From: Bdellovibrionaceae bacterium UBA2339
Lineage (GTDB): Bacteria > Bdellovibrionota > Bdellovibrionia > Bdellovibrionales > JAMPXM01
Direction of reading: 5' to 3'
DNA length: 64,000 bases
Assembly: GCA_002344785.1 (NCBI GenBank)
Contig: DDUL01000006.1
Location: 2,534-66,533 of the forward strand
In this document: positions 56,248-61,897 of the stretch, in pieces
How the letters are laid out: each line of letters opens with the position of its first letter
How positions within the stretch are numbered: the stretch's first letter is position 1
Notes under the pieces: generated by a model
Seen by the model: only the letters and a program-made list of their open reading frames with translations
Told to the model about the DNA's origin: nothing
The model's database searches: none
Made by a program: the position numbers and the translations under genes

Positions 56248-57702
56248 CTATCCAAGTTTTTCCGCACGACCGATCAACGAACTCTTCTTCATCATCGGCA
56301 CCAAAAGCTTCACTTCCGTGCCCTGCGGCTGACCGATCACCGCCACGCGAATCGGCTGGAACAAATGTTTGCCCTTAACACCCGCCAAATCTTTCACGCG
56401 ATCCTGAAGCGCCAAAAAATCAGCTTCGCTGAGCTTCTCACCCGGAAAGGCCCGCAGTTCTTGAAGCCAAGCTTGCCAAACTTTCTTCGCCTCGGGCCAC
56501 GCACAAACTTCCTGCGCTTCAGGCTTCACGCTAAAGGCCGAATCATCGAGCAATCGGTACAGCGGCACGGCGTCCGCCAAGGTCTGCATGGAAGTCTTAA
56601 AAGCATTCAGCGTTTGCTCTCGCCACGCCTGATTTTCAGCCTGCGGCAAGCTGAGCCCCGCTTCACGCAAGAAAGGCTCCACGCGCGCCCAAAGCTCTTC
56701 GGTCGGTAAGGCCCGCAGATAAGTGGCGTTCATCCACAAAAGCTTCGTCTCATCAAACACCGCCGGCGCGGGATTGAATCGCTCATGAGTGAAGAGCTGA
56801 ATCTGCTCATCGCGCGACAAGATCTCGCGTCCATCCGGCGACGACCATCCGCTCAGCAAAATGAAATTGTTGAGCGCCTCCGGCAAGTAGCCACGCAAGC
56901 GGAAGTCATTGCACGAGGTCGCACCATGGCGCTTGGAAAGCTTTTGCTTATCCGGCCCCAAGATGAACGACAAATGTCCAAACTGCGGCAACGGAAATTT
57001 GAGCGCTTCATAGATCATCATCTGGCGCAAGGTATTGGAAAGATGCTCCTCGGCGCGGAACACATGCGTGATCTGCATCAAAGCATCATCGATCACGCAG
57101 CAAAAGTTGTAGACGGGCATGCCGTTTGAGCGCACCAGAACAAAGTCGCCGACCATGTCTGAAGGAAATCGCACTTCGCCGCGCACCAAATCCTGCACGA
57201 AGTAATCGCGCTTTTCCGCCACGCGAAAGCGAATCGCTCCCGGCTCGCCTCGCGCGATTCGTGCGCGCGCTTCAGCCGGAGCGACGATCGTCGGCGGAGC
57301 TTCGATCTGAGGTGGCTTCCCTGCCGCAATCAACTTCTCTTTGATGACCTCAAGCTCGGCATCCGTACGAAAATCGTAATACGCCAAGCCTTCGTCCACG
57401 AGACGCTCGGCATACTGGCGATAGATGTCTTTTCGCAAACTCTGACGATAAGGTCCGTGTGGTCCTTGATCTTGCAGTGAATCCGGATGAGGCCCCTCGT
57501 CCCACAAAATTCCAAGCCACTTCAGATCGGCGATCTGCATGCGCATCGCCTCTTCGGTCGAGCGCTCCAAATCCGTATCTTCAATTCGCAAAATGAACTG
57601 ACCGCCATGCCGGCGAGCGTACAAAAAATTGTAGAGGGCCGTGCGAGCACCACCCACATGCAAGTAACCCGTCGGACTTGGAGCAAAGCGAACACGTACC
57701 AT
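56248..57702 (-). CDS. gltX: glutamate--tRNA ligase
   Basis: RFAPSPTGYLHVGGARTALYN (HIGH-type) and KLSKRHG (KMSKS-type). I chose ATG 57702 (MVRVRFAPSPTG); the ORF-track start at 57732 is also possible. Confidence 0.92.
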   Translation of the reverse strand: MVRVRFAPSPTGYLHVGGARTALYNFLYARRHGGQFILRIEDTDLERSTEEAMRMQIADLKWLGILWDEGPHPDSLQDQGPHGPYRQSLRKDIYRQYAERLVDEGLAYYDFRTDAELEVIKEKLIAAGKPPQIEAPPTIVAPAEARARIARGEPGAIRFRVAEKRDYFVQDLVRGEVRFPSDMVGDFVLVRSNGMPVYNFCCVIDDALMQITHVFRAEEHLSNTLRQMMIYEALKFPLPQFGHLSFILGPDKQKLSKRHGATSCNDFRLRGYLPEALNNFILLSGWSSPDGREILSRDEQIQLFTHERFNPAPAVFDETKLLWMNATYLRALPTEELWARVEPFLREAGLSLPQAENQAWREQTLNAFKTSMQTLADAVPLYRLLDDSAFSVKPEAQEVCAWPEAKKVWQAWLQELRAFPGEKLSEADFLALQDRVKDLAGVKGKHLFQPIRVAVIGQPQGTEVKLLVPMMKKSSLIGRAEKLG

Positions 57703-57858
57703 AATTGCCCTCGCCACAGTTTGTGGCTTCATCGACTTTCCTGAAATTCTCGCAGTTCAAACACAAAAACTGCGACCCTAGGCATGCGCCGCAAGGAGCC
57801 GCCACAGCCTCAGCCGTTAAGGTTGATAGGATAGCCCGATCCACCGAGCTTCAGGAAC

Positions 57859-57886
57859 GAAAAAACCCGCCGAGAACTCGGCGGGT
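57859..57886 (-). terminator. rho-independent terminator of the carD-like gene
   Basis: Inverted repeat ACCCGCCGAG / CTCGGCGGGT (57865-57874 / 57877-57886). On the minus strand it is followed by a T6 run (plus-strand aaaaaa, 57860-57865). It lies about 70 nt downstream of the stop at 57955. Confidence 0.85.
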
Positions 57887-57954
57887 TACCCCTTAGGAGC
57901 GCGACCCTTCTGAACTCTGGATTCCAACTCCCGAGTCCAACCCCTAAAACCAAA

Positions 57955-59067
57955 TTAAAGACCCAAAATCGCCTTCACTTCACCCTCTTGCTCCAGCTGA
58001 TCGCGCCCCGTGGCGAGGATCAGTTCTTTGATCAAGAGGCTGCGAGCCGTATCGAGCATCTTGCGCTCGCCAAAACTCAGCTCTTTGTCGACTTTGAGCA
58101 GGAAAAGATCCCGCAAAACTTCAGCGATCTCGCGAACGCCTCCGGTTTTAATCTTTTCCATGTACTCACGATAACGGCGGTTCCAAGTCTGATTGTCGAT
58201 CTTGACGTTGGTTTGCTTCAAGATGCCGATGACTTCTTCAGCCTCGGTCTTGGAGATGATGGGCCGTAGGCCTACGCTCTTCACGTTGCCCTGCGGGACC
58301 ATGATCTTCATGCCCGTTTCCAAAATTTGGATCGAGTAGAACGTGAGCTTTTTGCCCGCGATCTCCTTGCATTCGATCGCATTCACGCGACCAACACCAT
58401 GTCCCGGGTATACGGCGTTATCGCCCACCTTGAACTCGATCAACTCATCCCAATTGGCCGGCCGCTTCGCCACGATGGGCTGACGCGGACCTTTGGGCTG
58501 CGGAATTGGAATATTCTTAAATTCATCATCTTGTTGAGTCTGCTTCATGATCTCCGGCGAGAGCATGCTCTCCTCGTCGGACTCAACCGGCGAAGCCGTC
58601 TCCACCACCGACGTCGTCAACTCAGCCTGAACTGTCGTTTCACTGAACGAAGCCTGAATGGGCGCGGCTTCTGCCGCCACTCGAGCCGAGTTCGCCTTGG
58701 GTTTGATGTTTCGAACGACGGTCTTCACAACAGTCTTAACTGTCGCTTTCATCGCCGTATTCATGAGCTGTGTGGCCAAAGCCTCAGCCGAATCAAATGC
58801 CGCCTGTGCTGCCGACTTCGCCTTGGCTTGAGCCGACTGCGTAGTTTTGGAATTCAATGCCGAAGCCGATTTCGCATTTTTAATCGTGGACTTCGAATTC
58901 GACGCCGTTGCCGACTTCGCCTTCGACGCCAAGGCCTTCGACGTCTTAGATGACGACTTAGCTGGTGTCTTTGCAGGTTTCGAAGTGACCTTCGAAATAG
59001 CCGTAGGCTTTTTCGCGGACTTCGGGCTCGTTTTGACGGAGCGTTTTGAACTCACGCCATCCTCCAT
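57955..59067 (-). CDS. carD: CarD/CdnL-family transcriptional regulator with a 210-aa N-terminal Lys/Ala/Ser-rich (histone-H1-like) plus acidic extension
   Basis: The C-terminal 159 aa (FKVGDNAVYPGHGVGRVNAIE...NQTWNRRYREYMEKIKTGGVREIAEVLRDL...LSFGERKMLDTARSLLIKELI) is a full CdnL-type module. The same frame stays open upstream through KRSVKTSPKSAKKPTAISKVTSKPAKTPAKSSSKTSKALASKAKSA... and an acidic patch SPVESDEESMLSPEIMKQTQQDDE. I placed the start at ATG 59067; GTG 59184 is also possible. Confidence 0.75.
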   Translation of the reverse strand: MEDGVSSKRSVKTSPKSAKKPTAISKVTSKPAKTPAKSSSKTSKALASKAKSATASNSKSTIKNAKSASALNSKTTQSAQAKAKSAAQAAFDSAEALATQLMNTAMKATVKTVVKTVVRNIKPKANSARVAAEAAPIQASFSETTVQAELTTSVVETASPVESDEESMLSPEIMKQTQQDDEFKNIPIPQPKGPRQPIVAKRPANWDELIEFKVGDNAVYPGHGVGRVNAIECKEIAGKKLTFYSIQILETGMKIMVPQGNVKSVGLRPIISKTEAEEVIGILKQTNVKIDNQTWNRRYREYMEKIKTGGVREIAEVLRDLFLLKVDKELSFGERKMLDTARSLLIKELILATGRDQLEQEGEVKAILGL

Positions 59068-59311
59068 GGATCTGCCCCACCGCGCGAAAGCGTTTGGACA
59101 CAATCCCTTTTGGTTTTCCCAAGAAGGCGCGGATCGCATTGCGAACAACTCGTTCGCTTTGCTCTTCGCACCTTCATCGACCACTTCACATCGACCTAAC
59201 GAATCGGCGCGCCGTCGGCCTCACAGATTGAGGCTCAGAACTTATGCAGCGCGTTTCGCTCCAAGAAGGCATCGGCGATCTCGACCGCAATCTCACCCGC
59301 GATACCTTTCG

Positions 59312-59386
59312 CTCTCAGACCGGTCACTCTCAGACCGGTCACTCTCAGACTGGTCGCTCTCAGACCGATCGCTCTCAGACCGGCTT
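59312..59386. repeat. five tandem 15-bp repeats (CTCTCAGACCGGTCA-like)
   Basis: Units: ctctcagaccggtca x2, ctctcagactggtcg, ctctcagaccgatcg, ctctcagaccggctt. Located in the intergenic region about 245 bp upstream of the carD-like start and downstream of the S8 protease gene. Confidence 0.9.
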
Positions 59387-59662
59387 TTTGAGGGCCGCCC
59401 TAAAAGTCCCAAACTTCACCCACAAAGGAGCAAAGTTCGGCTGAGCGCAGGACGGAGTTTTACCACCGATGACACTGTCCATCAAGAAACGGGGCCACTT
59501 TACGGCAGCCTCATCCAAGAATTTCAGGGAATTTAAGATGACGAGGCCTCAATCCAAATGAGAGGCCTCTCGCATAATGCGCTGTGTAAATAGGTCAGGG
59601 GTGAGACTGACGAAATACGCCAGACCCTTGAGGAAACGAGGGGCCGGCCGCCCCTCTCGAGT

Positions 59663-61897
59663 TCACTCGGCTGTCACAATCAAAGCATAGGGCTGCTGAC
59701 CCATGGGCACATTCGCCCCTCGCACTTCGATGCGATAGTCGCCGGGATTAACCTGGAGACTCATGAACTCGTGATTGTTGGCGCGATCCTGACGATCAAT
59801 GCGCGGCCCGCTCACCGACACCAGCGACAAGTCCAAATCATTGACCAGCGCTTTGGCGGCTCCGGCGGCCCCAGGCGCATCCGTGTACACCAAGGTTGCC
59901 GTCAATCGGGCCGACTTCATCAAGCGAATGGGATAGGCGTGCACTTCACCGACGGCCAATCCTTTTCGCTCATCGATCAGCATCGAAGTTTCCAAACGCG
60001 TCGCCTGATCCGCATTCACGCGTCCAAAGCCTTGATCCATGTTGGGTCGCTCGGTGAGAAGCTCTTGCCCACGCGATGCTCCCACAGCGCCGAACTGGCC
60101 CGGAAACAAATCTTCGCTGGTATGCATGAGAATACCTTTAACCAAGGCCGCCGAGGGCTGTGTCAGCTGACGCTCCTTGCGCAGATACTCGCGCACAATC
60201 GCCGCAGCTCCCGCCACCAGTGGCGTCGACATCGAAGTTCCGCCCGACCAAGCATACAGCGAATTGTACAATCCCCAGAGCGGATCTGATTTGGGATGCT
60301 GAGACTTCAGCGACAAAATGTTCGTGCCGGGGGCAACGACCTCAGGCTTCAAGCGACCATCTTTAGTTGGTCCACGGCTTGAGAACGGCGCCAGTCCCCG
60401 CTCATTGTCCGAGAGCATTGAGCTCGCGAGCGGTTCAACGCCCCACTTCTCTTGGCCGATTTTCAACTCAATGAGCTTTCGTTGAATGCCGCCATTTTTC
60501 ACAAAGTTTTTGCTCGATCCCACAGTGAGCACGTTTTTCGCCGTGCCGGGCGACGAGATCGAGTTGCCGTCGATGCGCCCGTCTTTGTCGGCATCTTCAC
60601 CGTTGTTGCCCGCCGCGAACAGTAGCAAGAACTCGGGATTCTGGTGCATGTACTCATCCACTTGTTGGGCCATGGCATCGTAGTTTCCGAAGCCCGCGGC
60701 CGCACCCCACGAATTGGAGTGAATGCGCGCGCCCGCAGCTTGGGCTTTGCCGAACATGTCTTTGAGTTTGGAAGGCACACTCAAGTTGTCGAGCATCGGG
60801 CTCCACATCGACTGCGGAATCAGATGCGAAAGCGGAGCGGCGCCAGGAATTCCGGTGGCCGAGGCCGCACCATCACCGCCAATGGAACCGCCGACATGCG
60901 TGCCGTGACCCATCGGATCTTCCCAGCTTTTGGAGAAGAGTCCGTGGATGAAGCCTTGAGGAATTCGGCCATTCACATCTTGATGCACATTTTGCGTGTC
61001 GCCGCGATCAAAGCCGGTGTCGGCGAATGCGGCGATCTCGCCTTGGCCGCGAAGGCCTCGGGCCCACACGGCGTCGAGCTTCATGAGCTTCGTGCCTGAT
61101 TCAAAGCCTGTGAGATCTGAATAGTCTCCGGGAGTGGAGAGGAGACCGAAGCGCAAGTAGTCGTCCTTGAACCAAGGCAACTCAAGTTGCGCGAGAGGTT
61201 CGACCCATTCCACTTCGCTTTGCTTCACCAAGTCGTAGAGCGCACTTCGGCGCGCCTCAACGACCAGCGAACGTCCGGAGTTATCAAGAACTTTGATGTT
61301 CTTTGGCAGCTTGCCGATTCGCGTTTGTCCAGGGAACAGTCGCACCAACGCCCGCAGGCTCGGATCACCGCTGAAAATCGAGCTTGTGCCCAGCTCAGGC
61401 GCAAGTTTCCACCAAGGTTGATAAGGAACAAGCGCGTGAATTCGCGGCGAGGACTTGGACAGCACTTGCGCATCTTTCGGCGCCACTGAAATCACCAGCG
61501 CGTGATCCGGCAGATAACGAAGCACTTTCACTTTGAGACTGGCCAAGTTCTTCAGATCTTCGCGTTTGATGGTGTCGCGCATTTGCACGACGTAAACTTG
61601 CAGGCCCTTTGCCGGAGCACGCTTGGCTGGACGCTTTTCGCGTGTGCCCACCCAGCTGATGCCTGTGGCCTCGAGCTGCGTATCAAACATTGGCAGAGAA
61701 AAGCTCTGTGCGCTTTGGCTATGCAGATCGCGGAGATTCAAGTCGCCACCGCGCAATCGAAGCAAGGGCTCTTCGGCATGGGCGCCCCATCCGAGTAGCA
61801 GACCCAGAGACAGAACCAGGCCGATGCGTCCTGCCCGAGACAAACGATGCAATGCATTGCGTGCTTGTGAAATCACGAGGTGACCTCCCGAAGTCAT
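59663..61897 (-). CDS. secreted subtilisin-like (S8) serine protease with N-terminal propeptide-like and C-terminal beta domain
   Basis: Catalytic triad contexts AFADTGFD (Asp), HGTHVGGSIGG (His) and GGTSMSTPLVAGAAA (Ser). Signal RIGLVLSLGLLLGWGAHA. Start candidates are ATG 61897 (used here), GTG 61876 (GGGAGG SD 7 nt upstream) and TTG 61951. Confidence 0.85.
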   Translation of the reverse strand: MTSGGHLVISQARNALHRLSRAGRIGLVLSLGLLLGWGAHAEEPLLRLRGGDLNLRDLHSQSAQSFSLPMFDTQLEATGISWVGTREKRPAKRAPAKGLQVYVVQMRDTIKREDLKNLASLKVKVLRYLPDHALVISVAPKDAQVLSKSSPRIHALVPYQPWWKLAPELGTSSIFSGDPSLRALVRLFPGQTRIGKLPKNIKVLDNSGRSLVVEARRSALYDLVKQSEVEWVEPLAQLELPWFKDDYLRFGLLSTPGDYSDLTGFESGTKLMKLDAVWARGLRGQGEIAAFADTGFDRGDTQNVHQDVNGRIPQGFIHGLFSKSWEDPMGHGTHVGGSIGGDGAASATGIPGAAPLSHLIPQSMWSPMLDNLSVPSKLKDMFGKAQAAGARIHSNSWGAAAGFGNYDAMAQQVDEYMHQNPEFLLLFAAGNNGEDADKDGRIDGNSISSPGTAKNVLTVGSSKNFVKNGGIQRKLIELKIGQEKWGVEPLASSMLSDNERGLAPFSSRGPTKDGRLKPEVVAPGTNILSLKSQHPKSDPLWGLYNSLYAWSGGTSMSTPLVAGAAAIVREYLRKERQLTQPSAALVKGILMHTSEDLFPGQFGAVGASRGQELLTERPNMDQGFGRVNADQATRLETSMLIDERKGLAVGEVHAYPIRLMKSARLTATLVYTDAPGAAGAAKALVNDLDLSLVSVSGPRIDRQDRANNHEFMSLQVNPGDYRIEVRGANVPMGQQPYALIVTAE

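What the first reader, a model, noticed from the sequence alone, without database searches (positions are those of the whole stretch)
57955..59067. Domain-permuted CarD: CdnL-type module preceded rather than followed by a histone-H1-like basic region and an acidic patch
The last 159 aa form a complete CarD_CdnL_TRCF-type RNAP-interacting module. In the same open frame it is preceded by about 120 aa of Lys/Ala/Ser/Thr/Pro-rich sequence (SPKSAKKPTAISKVTSKPAKTPAKSSSKTSKALASKAKSATASNSKSTIKNAKSA...KAKSAAQA...VKTVVKTVVRNIKPKA). After that come an acidic Ser/Glu/Asp patch (SPVESDEESMLSPEIMKQTQQDDE) and a Pro-rich linker. It is established that myxobacterial CarD proteins couple an N-terminal CdnL-like module to a C-terminal acidic region plus a basic DNA-binding region. 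That basic region is HMGA-like (AT hooks) in Myxococcus and H1-like in Anaeromyxobacter. Ordinary CdnL proteins lack any such tail. Here the same three ingredients appear in the opposite order (basic, acidic, CdnL). This suggests independent acquisition or circular permutation of a eukaryote-like architectural DNA-binding tail.
Basis: partly seen in the sequence, partly recalled or inferred. Interest (0 to 1): 0.65.

Follow-up and report, generated by a model that had tools for sequence, protein, structure and literature searches.

The report
CdnL with a basic N-terminal tail
A Bdellovibrio-like bacterium makes its housekeeping RNA-polymerase helper CdnL with about 200 extra, mostly disordered, lysine-rich residues at the front; the tail is really translated but is not a rearranged CarD, and it probably tethers the factor to DNA.

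Summary
A minus-strand gene (stop 57955-57957) encodes a complete CdnL module (PF02559 + PF21095). About 206 residues precede it: an acid-free Lys/Ser/Ala/Thr region (aa 1-83, net +20), one conserved helix with KTVV repeats, an acidic patch, and a Pro-rich linker.

The extension is translated. A GGAGG Shine-Dalgarno plus GTG/ATG sits at its head in the window and in nine related genomes. dN/dS in the extension is 0.04-0.38, and all indels are in frame.

The "permuted CarD" reading fails:
- The module is a CdnL orthologue. It scores 199 bits against M. xanthus CdnL, and its N-terminal part scores 67 bits against CdnL versus 55 against CarD.
- All functional residues are kept.
- The gene sits in the same recG–S8 peptidase–cdnL–gltX–cysS–uvrB locus as ordinary 160-190 aa CdnL of other Bdellovibrionales.
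- The order is a mirror image of CarD, not a circular permutation.
- The tail has no AT hooks, no SPKK motifs and no detectable homologues.
- The acidic patch is confined to a small subclade.

Similar tails recur in several Bdellovibrionales-like lineages. Best inference: a DNA-tethering disordered tail, analogous to CarD and Streptomyces DdbA. This is a new variant of a known kind, of moderate interest.

The parts
57955..59055 (-). Long-form cdnL gene: 366 codons from GTG 59055, plus the stop codon 57955-57957. An alternative ATG start lies at 59067 (370 aa).
   Evidence: ORF list. The GTG start matches an independent gene call, P0001, 366 aa and 100% identical. SD + GTG is conserved in L001-L009.
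59060..59065 (-). Shine-Dalgarno GGAGGA. Its GGAGG core ends 5 nt before GTG 59055.
   Evidence: a GGAGG lies 4-6 nt before the GTG/ATG at the head of the extension in the window and in 8 of the 9 relatives L001-L009 (L005 is weaker). Short-form loci carry the SD directly before the module instead.
58807..59055 (-). aa 1-83: acid-free Lys/Ser/Ala/Thr-rich basic region (net +20, pI 11.7), predicted disordered.
   Evidence: Composition. pLDDT about 50-59. Against L001: aa 1-12 are 92% identical; aa 13-80 are only 36% identical, dN/dS 0.41. Composition, not sequence, is conserved.
58675..58806 (-). aa 84-127: conserved block. It holds most of the predicted helix (aa 81-106, i.e. 58738-58815) and the KATVKTVVKTVVRNIKPK repeat.
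   Evidence: AF2 helix H81-106, pLDDT 64-73. aa 81-127 are 89% identical to L001 with dN/dS 0.08 at pS 0.54. Amphipathic moment 0.3-0.44.
58507..58674 (-). aa 128-183: Ser/Thr/Ala/Val/Glu segment and acidic patch (SPVESDEESMLSPEIMKQTQQDDEF), net -10.
   Evidence: Present only in WIN/P0001, P0003/P0122 and P0004 among 49 long forms. aa 161-206 are 83% identical to L001, dN/dS 0.08.
58438..58506 (-). aa 184-206: Pro-rich basic linker IPQPKGPRQPIVAKRPANWDELI.
   Evidence: 22% Pro, net +2. Identical in L001, P0003 and P0004.
57958..58437 (-). aa 207-366: complete CdnL module. RID/Tudor-like domain at 58255-58434; CarD_C helical domain at 57985-58236.
   Evidence: Pfam. PDB alignment to M. xanthus CdnL 2lwj. 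AF2 pLDDT above 90. F239, M252, P254, W291, R293, R294 and R296 are invariant in 53 sequences.
57864..57887 (-). Intrinsic terminator-like hairpin (10-bp stem, 7 G-C pairs) followed by a T tract, 68 nt after the stop codon.
59444..59552 (-). Conserved non-coding block upstream of the gene. It contains a sigma-70-like promoter: TTGATG at 59480-59485, a 17-nt spacer ending in TGG, and TAAAAC at 59457-59462. This implies a 5' leader of about 395 nt.
   Evidence: About 97% identical to L001 over about 160 nt while synonymous sites differ at pS 0.44-0.62. Found upstream of cdnL in all of L001-L009 by nhmmer. Alignment A3 shows conservation stopping just after the -10 hexamer. Coordinates. That it is a promoter is an inference.

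Best explanation
This is the orthologue of the housekeeping RNA-polymerase-binding factor CdnL in an uncultured Bdellovibrionaceae-like bacterium. It carries a lineage-specific, translated N-terminal extension of about 206 residues.

Shown:
- The C-terminal 160 residues are a complete CdnL. They keep the RNAP-beta contact residues and the W/RR-R patch needed for open-complex stabilisation in M. xanthus.
- The extension is translated from a GTG behind a strong Shine-Dalgarno sequence.
- The extension is under purifying selection and mostly disordered. It has three strongly constrained pieces: the first 12 residues, a helix with KTVV repeats, and an acidic patch with a Pro-rich linker.

Inferred mechanism:
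- The module docks on the beta lobe of RNAP and stabilises open complexes, as in other CdnL proteins.
- The acid-free Lys-rich N-terminal 80-125 residues bind DNA non-specifically. This tethers the factor to the nucleoid or to promoter-flanking DNA and raises its local concentration or residence time at promoters. The closest characterised homologue, M. xanthus CdnL, has no DNA binding of its own.
- In the window's subclade, the acidic patch probably folds back on the basic region, or on the basic patch of the module, to temper that binding.

This is functionally convergent with the C-terminal HMGA/H1-like domain of myxobacterial CarD and with the N-terminal H1-like domain of Streptomyces DdbA. 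It is not derived from either.
For: Module identity:
- Pfam RID + CarD_C.
- 199-bit end-to-end match to Mx CdnL 2lwj.
- F239/M252/P254 correspond to F36/M49/P51, W291 to W88, and R293/R294/R296 to R90/R91/R93. All are invariant in A1. Their roles are described in PMC4182748.

Orthology:
- Synteny recG-S8 peptidase-cdnL-gltX-cysS-uvrB is shared with short-form loci.

Translation of the extension:
- SD + GTG/ATG at its head in the window and L001-L009.
- Extension dN/dS: 0.22 (WIN-L001), 0.04 (L002-L003), 0.18 (L006-L009). Substitutions are mostly at third positions and all indels are in frame.
- Regional dN/dS 0.08-0.41.
- Internal Met codons are not conserved.

Physical character:
- Net +20 with no acidic residue in aa 1-83.
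- AF2 predicts disorder plus one helix.
- In 49 long forms the most basic 30-aa window is usually at or near the N terminus, and the segment next to the module is neutral.

Plausibility of DNA tethering:
- Mx CdnL shows no DNA binding in EMSA, whereas basic CdnLs bind non-specifically (PMC4182748; PMC5324124).
- An H1-like N-terminal domain fused to an RNAP-binding factor binds and condenses DNA in DdbA (PMC3643593).
- CarD uses an HMGA- or H1-like tail (PMC2919716).
Against: - No experiment or structure supports DNA binding by this tail.
- Lys density (23%, with 25% Ser) is well below that of H1 tails. There are no SPKK or AT-hook motifs.
- The most strongly conserved parts of the extension are not the basic region. 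They are the helix/KTVV block and the acidic/Pro-rich block (dN/dS 0.08). That points to specific partner binding, which the DNA-tether model does not explain.
- Most Bdellovibrionales manage with a short CdnL.
- The acidic patch is absent from most long forms, so any autoinhibition role cannot be general.
- Whether these genomes also hold a second, short cdnL could not be tested.
Confidence: 0.5

Rival explanations
1. The extension is a disordered regulatory or partner-binding region, not a DNA tether. On this view the conserved helix/KTVV block and the acidic/Pro-rich block are short linear motifs. They would bind a protein (RNAP, sigma, a protease adaptor or another regulator), or control turnover, polyanion (polyphosphate/RNA) binding or condensate formation. 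The Lys/Ser-rich part would be a spacer or solubility region.
For: - The strongest constraint in the extension lies in aa 81-127 and 161-206 (dN/dS 0.08). The basic aa 13-80 are only 36% identical to L001, dN/dS 0.41.
- AF2 predicts an isolated helix in a disordered context, which is typical of a binding motif.
- A linker motif, DAALLAPKTPxRSxRGYRPGAVEATKTLAELS, is near-identical across the L004-L009 group.
Against: - An 83-residue stretch with 20 basic and no acidic residues is hard to keep neutral towards DNA in vivo.
- That charge pattern, basic end distal to the module, recurs in 49 long forms whose sequences are otherwise unalignable. Selection therefore seems to act on charge itself.
- No candidate partner is identifiable from the locus.
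Confidence: 0.3
2. This is a domain-permuted CarD. On this view it is a CarD-type global regulator, paralogous to CdnL, that works with a CarG-like partner and ECF sigma factors, and whose acidic and basic DNA-binding regions were moved to the N terminus by circular permutation or rearrangement.
For: The same three kinds of ingredient occur in one polypeptide: a CdnL-like module, an acidic stretch and a basic stretch. CarD proteins with an H1-like rather than HMGA-like basic region exist (PMC2919716).
Against: - The module is nearer to Mx CdnL than to Mx CarD Nt (67 vs 55 bits for the N-terminal domain; 199 bits full length).
- It sits in the conserved cdnL locus of Bdellovibrionales. Its flanking genes are an S8 peptidase and gltX, not carG.
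- The order is a mirror image of CarD, not a circular permutation.
- There are no AT hooks.
- The tail has no detectable homologue.
- The acidic patch is limited to one small subclade.
- CarD is reported only from myxobacteria (PMC4182748 abstract).
Confidence: 0.03
3. The extension is an annotation artefact. On this view translation starts at an internal codon near the module (for example MLSPEIM, or a TTG before AELS) and the upstream open frame is untranslated leader.
For: - Weak SD-like GAGG/GGAG strings precede the internal ATGs at 58566 and 58548.
- The predicted promoter lies about 395 nt upstream of the start, so a long leader exists anyway.
Against: - The internal Mets are Ile/Leu in L001.
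- No SD-linked start near the module is conserved across L001-L009, whereas GGAGG + GTG/ATG at the head is.
- dN/dS is 0.04-0.38 with changes mostly at third positions and only in-frame indels.
- The frame is open by chance with P about 4e-4, while the other frames hold 8 and 13 stops.
Confidence: 0.03

Closest known systems
CdnL of Myxococcus xanthus (PDB 2lwj) and the wider CdnL/CarD family of RNAP-binding open-complex stabilisers (M. tuberculosis CarD, T. thermophilus CarD, B. bacteriovorus BbCdnL)
   Same: The C-terminal 160 residues align end to end with Mx CdnL (199 bits). Both Pfam domains are present. The residues F36/M49/P51, W88 and R90/R91/R93 are conserved. The gene occupies the same locus as short cdnL in other Bdellovibrionales.
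   Different: Known CdnLs are stand-alone proteins of about 160 aa; BbCdnL is 164 aa and delta-proteobacterial ones were listed as 125-188 aa in PMC2919716. This one has 206 extra N-terminal residues with a basic, disordered head. I found no paper describing N-terminally extended CdnL.
CarD of Myxococcus xanthus / Stigmatella (HMGA-like tail) and CarD of Anaeromyxobacter dehalogenans (H1-like tail)
   Same: A CdnL-type module is joined in one polypeptide to an acidic stretch and a basic, presumably DNA-binding, low-complexity region. The acidic stretch lies between the module and the basic region in both (PMC2919716).
   Different: The tail is N-terminal, a mirror order. There are no AT hooks. 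The module is a CdnL orthologue, not a CarD paralogue. No carG is adjacent. The host is Bdellovibrionales, not Myxococcota. No sequence similarity of the tail to anything was detected.
[quoted passage not shown]
   Same: The layout is the same: a lineage-specific N-terminal Lys-rich extension of about 90-140 aa in front of a small, conserved RNAP-binding transcription factor. Paralogues or orthologues without the extension exist.
   Different: The RNAP-binding module belongs to a different family (DksA, secondary channel, versus CdnL, beta lobe/upstream fork). DdbA has five (S/T)(A/T)AKK repeats with BLAST similarity to Hc2 and HupS. The tail here has no such repeats and no detectable similarity. 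DNA binding is shown for DdbA and not for this protein.
Lysine-repeat tails of actinobacterial DNA-handling proteins (TopA C-terminal lysine repeats, HupS/HupB C-terminal H1-like tails)
   Same: Basic low-complexity disordered tails are added in a lineage-specific way to conserved nucleic-acid enzymes or factors. They act by non-specific DNA contact (PMC5714199 and PMC11229371 abstracts).
   Different: Different host proteins, a different phylum, C-terminal position, and higher Lys density. The comparison is by analogy only.

Membership tests
CdnL (CarD_CdnL_TRCF family, stand-alone RNAP-binding factor) | N-terminal Tudor-like RNAP-interacting domain (PF02559) | tested here: met
   Pfam E 7e-13, profile positions 1-57 of 57. 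AF2 beta-strands 213-254 with pLDDT above 90.
CdnL (CarD_CdnL_TRCF family, stand-alone RNAP-binding factor) | C-terminal five-helix domain (PF21095) | tested here: met
   Pfam E 2.5e-28, profile positions 1-83 of 87. Helices 269-364 in the AF2 model.
CdnL (CarD_CdnL_TRCF family, stand-alone RNAP-binding factor) | RNAP-beta contact residues (Mx F36, M49, P51) and the W88 / R90-R91-R93 patch | tested here: met
   F239, M252, P254, W291, R293, R294 and R296 are present and invariant in 53 aligned sequences. Their roles are from PMC4182748.
CdnL (CarD_CdnL_TRCF family, stand-alone RNAP-binding factor) | Positional orthology with cdnL of related genomes | tested here: met
   gltX lies downstream in 72 of 80 loci and the S8 peptidase upstream in 46 of 80, in both long and short forms. 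The same order holds in L082-L084 and in the window.
CdnL (CarD_CdnL_TRCF family, stand-alone RNAP-binding factor) | Stand-alone size of about 160 aa with no extra regions | tested here: not met
   366 aa, with a 206-aa N-terminal extension that is translated.
CdnL (CarD_CdnL_TRCF family, stand-alone RNAP-binding factor) | Binds RNAP beta and stabilises open complexes | not testable with these tools
   Needs a two-hybrid or pull-down assay and in vitro transcription.
CarD (myxobacterial global regulator) | N-terminal CarDNt module, paralogous to CdnL, that binds CarG | tested here: not met
   The module is C-terminal and closer to CdnL than to CarD (2lt4 67 bits vs 2lt1 55 bits; 2lwj 199 bits). 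The flanking genes are an S8 peptidase and gltX, not carG. CarG binding itself is not testable.
CarD (myxobacterial global regulator) | C-terminal DNA-binding domain with AT hooks (HMGA-like) or an H1-like Lys/Ala/Pro domain | tested here: not met
   The basic region is N-terminal. There is no GRP/RGRP core. Composition is K 23%, S 25%, A 20%, P 5%.
CarD (myxobacterial global regulator) | Acidic region between the module and the basic region | tested here: inconclusive
   An acidic stretch (net -10, aa 128-183) does lie between the basic region and the module. It is in mirror order and occurs in only 5 of 49 long forms.
CarD (myxobacterial global regulator) | Restricted to Myxococcota and co-existing with a separate CdnL | tested here: not met
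   The closest genomes are Bdellovibrionaceae/Bdellovibrionales MAGs. Whether a second cdnL exists in the same genome could not be tested. None of the nine long-form assemblies appears twice among the 80 loci returned.
Histone-H1-like basic tails (H1 C-terminal domain; bacterial Hc1/Hc2, DdbA N-terminus, HupS/HupB tails) | Repeated S/TPKK or (S/T)(A/T)AKK-type Lys motifs | tested here: not met
   No [ST]P[KR][KR] motif; a single TPAK. No tandem repeat in the coding DNA.
Histone-H1-like basic tails (H1 C-terminal domain; bacterial Hc1/Hc2, DdbA N-terminus, HupS/HupB tails) | Lys/Ala/Pro-dominated, acid-poor, intrinsically disordered composition | tested here: inconclusive
   The region is acid-free and predicted disordered, but Ser/Thr-rich with about half the Lys density of H1 (my own knowledge). 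Sister lineages such as P0049 and P0056 are more H1-like: K 15-18%, A 28-36%, P 15-19%.
Histone-H1-like basic tails (H1 C-terminal domain; bacterial Hc1/Hc2, DdbA N-terminus, HupS/HupB tails) | Detectable sequence similarity to H1/Hc2-type proteins | tested here: not met
   No Pfam or NCBIfam hit in the extension at E up to 1, apart from composition-driven hits at E 0.15-0.2. The exhaustive phmmer search found only a fragment of the same protein.
Histone-H1-like basic tails (H1 C-terminal domain; bacterial Hc1/Hc2, DdbA N-terminus, HupS/HupB tails) | Non-specific DNA binding or condensation | not testable with these tools
   Needs EMSA or AFM with the purified N-terminal fragment.

The most novel reading that the evidence does not exclude
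Bdellovibrionales-like bacteria have repeatedly equipped the RNAP open-complex stabiliser CdnL with an N-terminal, charge-conserved but sequence-free DNA-tethering tail. In the window's subclade this comes with an acidic autoinhibitory patch and a conserved helix. The result would be a polymerase-bound factor turned into a nucleoid-anchored one. It would be a third, independent invention of the 'RNAP-binding module + histone-like tail' design, after myxobacterial CarD and Streptomyces DdbA, probably built de novo from 5' leader sequence.
Probability: 0.35. Interest if true: 0.6.

Novelty: new variant of a known kind. Interest (0 to 1): 0.45.

Why it matters
CdnL/CarD is a widespread, often essential factor that sets the stability of open promoter complexes, notably at rRNA promoters. 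How much direct DNA contact contributes to its action differs between species and is debated: M. xanthus CdnL shows none, while Caulobacter, Thermus and Mycobacterium homologues show weak binding.

This clade offers a natural experiment. Orthologues in the same locus, with or without a roughly 100-250-residue basic tail, can be compared directly.

If the tail binds DNA, it would show convergent evolution of the CarD and DdbA design, an RNAP-binding module joined to a histone-like tail. It would also be a case of a functional disordered region apparently grown from non-coding leader sequence. If the tail does not bind DNA, the two strongly conserved motifs in it point to an unknown partner of CdnL.

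Tried and rejected
- **Homology of the extension to anything known.** Pfam and NCBIfam gave no real hit. PDB hits covered the module only. The exhaustive phmmer search of aa 1-206 against 1.84 billion representatives found only one fragment of the same protein.
- **Homology of extensions between lineages.** Local alignment against composition-matched shuffles gave z of -0.2 to 3.7. I therefore cannot decide between one ancient origin with losses and several gains. Motif resemblances seen by eye (KTVxKT, IPxPK...LAELS) were not statistically supported and are not used.
- **Fusion with a neighbouring H1-like gene.** No separate Lys-rich ORF lies within 1.5 kb upstream or 0.6 kb downstream of the start of the CdnL module in the short-form loci.
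- **Structured RNA in the region.** Rfam found nothing in 57600-59800 at E up to 1. The very conserved upstream block stops just after a -10-like hexamer. I therefore read it as a promoter, not an RNA, and did not fold it.
- **The strict sigma-70 scan.** It found no promoter, because it requires T at the last -10 position.
- **Plus-strand ORFs 58327-58953 and 58847-59536.** They overlap the extension and are Arg/Leu/Cys-rich antisense shadows. Selection acts on the minus frame.
- **García-Heras et al., PNAS 2009** (H1-like CarD). This paper is not held in the library.
Full report
**1. What is there**

The finding lies on the minus strand. The longest open frame runs from 59184 to the stop at 57955-57957, 409 codons.

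Pfam places CarD_TRCF_RID at residues 251-310 and CarD_C at 317-400 of that frame, both far above their gathering scores.

phmmer against PDB aligns residues 207-365 end to end with M. xanthus CdnL (2lwj, E 8e-58, 199 bits). I number from the GTG start discussed in section 2. Weaker matches are M. tuberculosis, Streptomyces and Thermus CarD/CdnL.

The preceding 206 residues break down as follows:

| Residues | Character | Net charge |
|---|---|---|
| 1-83 | K 23%, S 25%, A 20%, T 11%, P 5%; no Asp/Glu; pI 11.7 | +20 |
| 84-127 | QAAFDSAEALATQLMNTAMKATVKTVVKTVVRNIKPKANSARVA | +5 |
| 128-183 | Ser/Thr/Ala/Val/Glu stretch ending in the acidic patch | -10 |
| 184-206 | Pro-rich linker, 22% Pro | +2 |

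AlphaFold2, run with a 53-sequence alignment, models the module at pLDDT above 90. It leaves the extension at pLDDT about 45-60, except for one helix at residues 81-106 with pLDDT 64-73.

No other open frame of at least 100 aa in the 64-kb window (197 tested) has a comparable Lys-rich, acid-free segment.

**2. Is the extension translated?**

Yes, on four lines of evidence.

- **Start signal.** A scan of one genome per species returned 80 loci, all Bdellovibrionales-like. In the window and the nine closest loci (L001-L009), a GGAGG Shine-Dalgarno lies 4-6 nt before a GTG (ATG in L006/L009). The signal is weaker in L005. It sits exactly at the head of the Lys-rich frame, and no conserved start signal lies near the module. 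In the remaining loci the same SD sits directly before an ATG 2-12 codons from the module.
- **Selection.** Codon-aligned comparisons give extension dN/dS of 0.22 (window vs L001), 0.04 (L002 vs L003) and 0.18 (L006 vs L009), and 0.16-0.38 for deeper pairs. Differences are concentrated at third positions and every indel is in frame. The module has dN/dS of at most 0.02.
- **Open frame.** The frame is open by chance with P about 4e-4, while the other two frames carry 8 and 13 stops.

The most likely start in the window is GTG 59055. It follows the GGAGG core of the GGAGGA at 59060-59065 by 5 nt, has the same geometry as in the relatives, and matches an independent gene call, P0001, 366 aa. The difference is immaterial.

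A terminator-like hairpin at 57887-57864 follows the stop.

**3. Fine structure of the constraint**

Against L001 (module 100% identical, pS 0.44), the extension is a mosaic:

| Residues | Identity to L001 | dN/dS |
|---|---|---|
| 1-12 | 92% | 0.12 |
| 13-80 | 36% | 0.41 |
| 81-127 | 89% | 0.08 |
| 128-160 | 58% | 0.16 |
| 161-206 | 83% | 0.08 |

The basic head conserves charge and composition but not sequence. The helix/KTVV block and the acidic/Pro-rich block are conserved as sequence.

**4. What the gene is**

It is the cdnL orthologue, not a CarD-type paralogue.

- **Similarity.** The N-terminal domain scores higher against M. xanthus CdnL Nt (2lt4, 67 bits) than against CarD Nt (2lt1, 55 bits). 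The whole module matches CdnL at 199 bits.
- **Functional residues.** The residues shown in M. xanthus to contact RNAP-beta (F36, M49, P51) are present here as F239, M252 and P254. The W88 / R90-R91-R93 patch needed for open-complex stabilisation and viability (PMC4182748) is present as W291/R293/R294/R296. All are invariant in 53 aligned relatives.
- **Locus.** The gene order in the window is recG - S8 peptidase - cdnL - gltX - cysS - uvrB - GDSL-lipase-family protein - uvrC. gltX follows cdnL in 72 of 80 loci and the S8 peptidase precedes it in 46 of 80. This holds in long-form and short-form genomes alike and in three further long-form contigs, L082-L084. In L081 the gltX-cysS-uvrB block lies on the other side of cdnL on the opposite strand, with no S8 peptidase in the stretch fetched.
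- **Comparison.** B. bacteriovorus BbCdnL, which has been studied experimentally, is 164 aa (PMC2919716).

**5. Distribution**

- In the species-level sample, the window plus L001-L009 form one clade of long forms, with extensions of 97-213 aa. This holds both in a neighbour-joining tree of the module and in an independent tree of the adjacent GltX.
- Other long forms sit elsewhere among short-form lineages:
  - L082/L083 have 151 aa that are Ala/Lys/Pro-rich.
  - L084 has 253 aa.
  - L081 has 112 aa with K+R 28%.
  - L034 (44 aa) and L075 (29 aa) are short intermediates.
- Metagenomic proteins add many more. Forty-nine have Lys-rich extensions of at least 90 aa. That search was biased towards long forms by the query.
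- Extension-only alignments between lineages are not better than composition-matched shuffles (z of -0.2 to 3.7).
- An exhaustive phmmer search with residues 1-206 against 1.84 billion representatives found only a fragment of the same protein.
- No separate Lys-rich ORF lies next to short cdnL genes.

So the tail is a fast-evolving, lineage-specific disordered region. Several gains, or one gain with many losses, both remain possible. Growth out of the 5' leader is a reasonable inference but is not shown.

Across long forms the common pattern is a basic maximum usually at or near the N terminus and a neutral Ala/Pro/Val segment next to the module. A marked acidic patch (30-aa net charge of -5 or lower) is confined to the window's own subclade: P0001, P0003/P0122 and P0004.

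**6.

The background on CarD is correct. [quoted passage not shown]

But this protein is not a rearranged CarD, for the reasons in section 4. Two further points apply. The order basic-acidic-module is the mirror image of module-acidic-basic, which circular permutation cannot give. The tail also lacks AT hooks and SPKK motifs and any family-level similarity.

'H1-like' is fair only as a loose statement about composition. Lys density is about half that of an H1 tail (my own knowledge) and Ser/Thr are unusually abundant. 'Independent acquisition' is the part of the interpretation that survives.

**7. How it most likely works**

Shown: a complete, conserved CdnL module and a translated, selected, mostly disordered N-terminal tail with a strongly cationic head.

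Inferred: the module acts as in other CdnLs, docking on the RNAP beta lobe and stabilising open complexes. The cationic head contacts DNA non-specifically and tethers the factor to the nucleoid or to promoter-flanking DNA.

The inference rests on three things:
- the physics of an 83-residue stretch with +20 charge and no acidic residue;
- the recurrence of that charge pattern in unalignable tails;
- three precedents:
  - CarD uses an HMGA- or H1-like tail.
  - Streptomyces DdbA has an N-terminal H1-like domain that binds and condenses DNA, fused to a DksA-like RNAP-binding domain (PMC3643593).
  - DNA binding varies among CdnLs with charge: none for the acidic M. xanthus protein, weak and non-specific for basic homologues (PMC4182748; PMC5324124).

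In the window's subclade the acidic patch may temper the basic head by intramolecular contact. That is speculation.

The main rival is that the tail is chiefly a partner-binding or regulatory region. The evidence for it is that the best-conserved pieces are the helix/KTVV block and the acidic/Pro block, not the basic head. I put the DNA-tether model at about 0.5, the partner/regulatory model at about 0.3, and the CarD-permutation and artefact readings at about 0.03 each.

**8. Novelty**

Full-text searches found no description of N-terminally extended CdnL. Length heterogeneity in the family was tabulated in 2010, but delta-proteobacterial members were listed as 125-188 aa.

Basic low-complexity tails on bacterial DNA-handling proteins are a known theme (DdbA, TopA, HupS). 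The finding is therefore a new variant of a known kind. It would interest CdnL/CarD specialists and people working on disordered-region evolution, but it is not a new category.

**9. Beyond the finding**

The 600-bp spacer upstream of the gene holds a block of about 110-160 nt that is about 97% identical to L001, although synonymous sites in the flanking genes have diverged (pS 0.44-0.62). The block is detectable upstream of cdnL in all of L001-L009.

The ten-sequence alignment shows invariant CTGAAATTCTTG, GGTGCCG and TTGATGG...GTGTCA...TG-TAnAAC, with conservation ending just after the last hexamer. I read this as a sigma-70-type promoter with an extended -10 and a conserved upstream region:
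- -35 hexamer TTGATG at 59480-59485;
- -10 hexamer TAAAAC at 59457-59462.

That would give a leader of about 395 nt in the window. The leader contains a 15-bp tandem repeat (4.8 copies, 59312-59383) that L001 lacks.

Noticed in passing
window 59444-59552 (minus strand); also L001 2532-2696 and upstream of cdnL in L002-L009: A non-coding block is about 97% identical between the window and L001, far above synonymous-site conservation. Its roughly 100-nt core is shared by all nine long-form relatives. It contains invariant CTGAAATTCTTG (59516-59527) and a promoter-like TTGATG-N14-TGG-TAAAAC (59457-59485). Conservation stops just after the -10-like hexamer. It is probably the cdnL promoter plus an upstream regulatory or UP-like region. 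It was not detected in short-form loci at E up to 1e-3.
   Followed up: partly
window 59312-59383: A 15-bp tandem repeat (4.8 copies, 91% matches) lies in the presumed 5' leader of cdnL. On the gene strand the unit is TGACCGGTCTGAGAG and contains the palindrome GACCGGTC. L001 lacks it and instead has an unrelated 8-bp repeat, GAAGATCA x4, at L001 2898-2929.
   Followed up: partly
window 59101-59125 (minus strand): A second short conserved element, TTCTTGGGA(A/T)AACCAAAAGGGAT, lies about 45-70 nt upstream of the start codon. It is shared by the window and L001 while the sequence around it has diverged. Function unknown.
   Followed up: no
P0117 (213 aa, from a 5.18-Mb contig); P0086: P0117 is a CdnL homologue, 59% identical over the module, with a Lys/Arg-rich C-terminal tail of about 50 aa (…KMGKPKRQRTTNKSLARAKAAKKDA). 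Basic tails therefore also occur at the other end of CdnL outside this clade, in the CarD-like orientation. P0086 has an Arg/Pro-rich C-terminal extension that looks like a frame or read-through artefact.
   Followed up: no
L075 and L034 (sequence just upstream of the cdnL module): Short N-terminal extensions of 29 and 44 aa contain GRP cores: RPTGRPGERPK in L075 and VRPGSGRPGMGGK in L034. These faintly recall AT-hook cores. The window protein has none.
   Followed up: no
L004-L009 and many metagenomic long forms (e.g. P0009-P0011, P0020-P0029): A nearly invariant linker motif, PDAALLAPKTPxRSxRGYRPGAVEATKTLAELSxxPIEF, lies directly before the module. In the window and L001 it is replaced by NIPIPQPKGPRQPIVAKRPANWDELIEF. 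It may be a lineage-specific short linear motif.
   Followed up: partly
window 58327-58953 (+) and 58847-59536 (+): Two long plus-strand ORFs (208 and 229 aa, Arg/Leu/Cys-rich) overlap the extension. They are antisense shadows of the low-complexity coding sequence, not genes.
   Followed up: yes
L079 (CALQIT020000089.1): This contig is labelled 'Streptomyces griseus' MAG but carries a Bdellovibrionales-type cdnL (75% identical over the module) and the adjacent gltX. The bin is probably mislabelled or contaminated.
   Followed up: no
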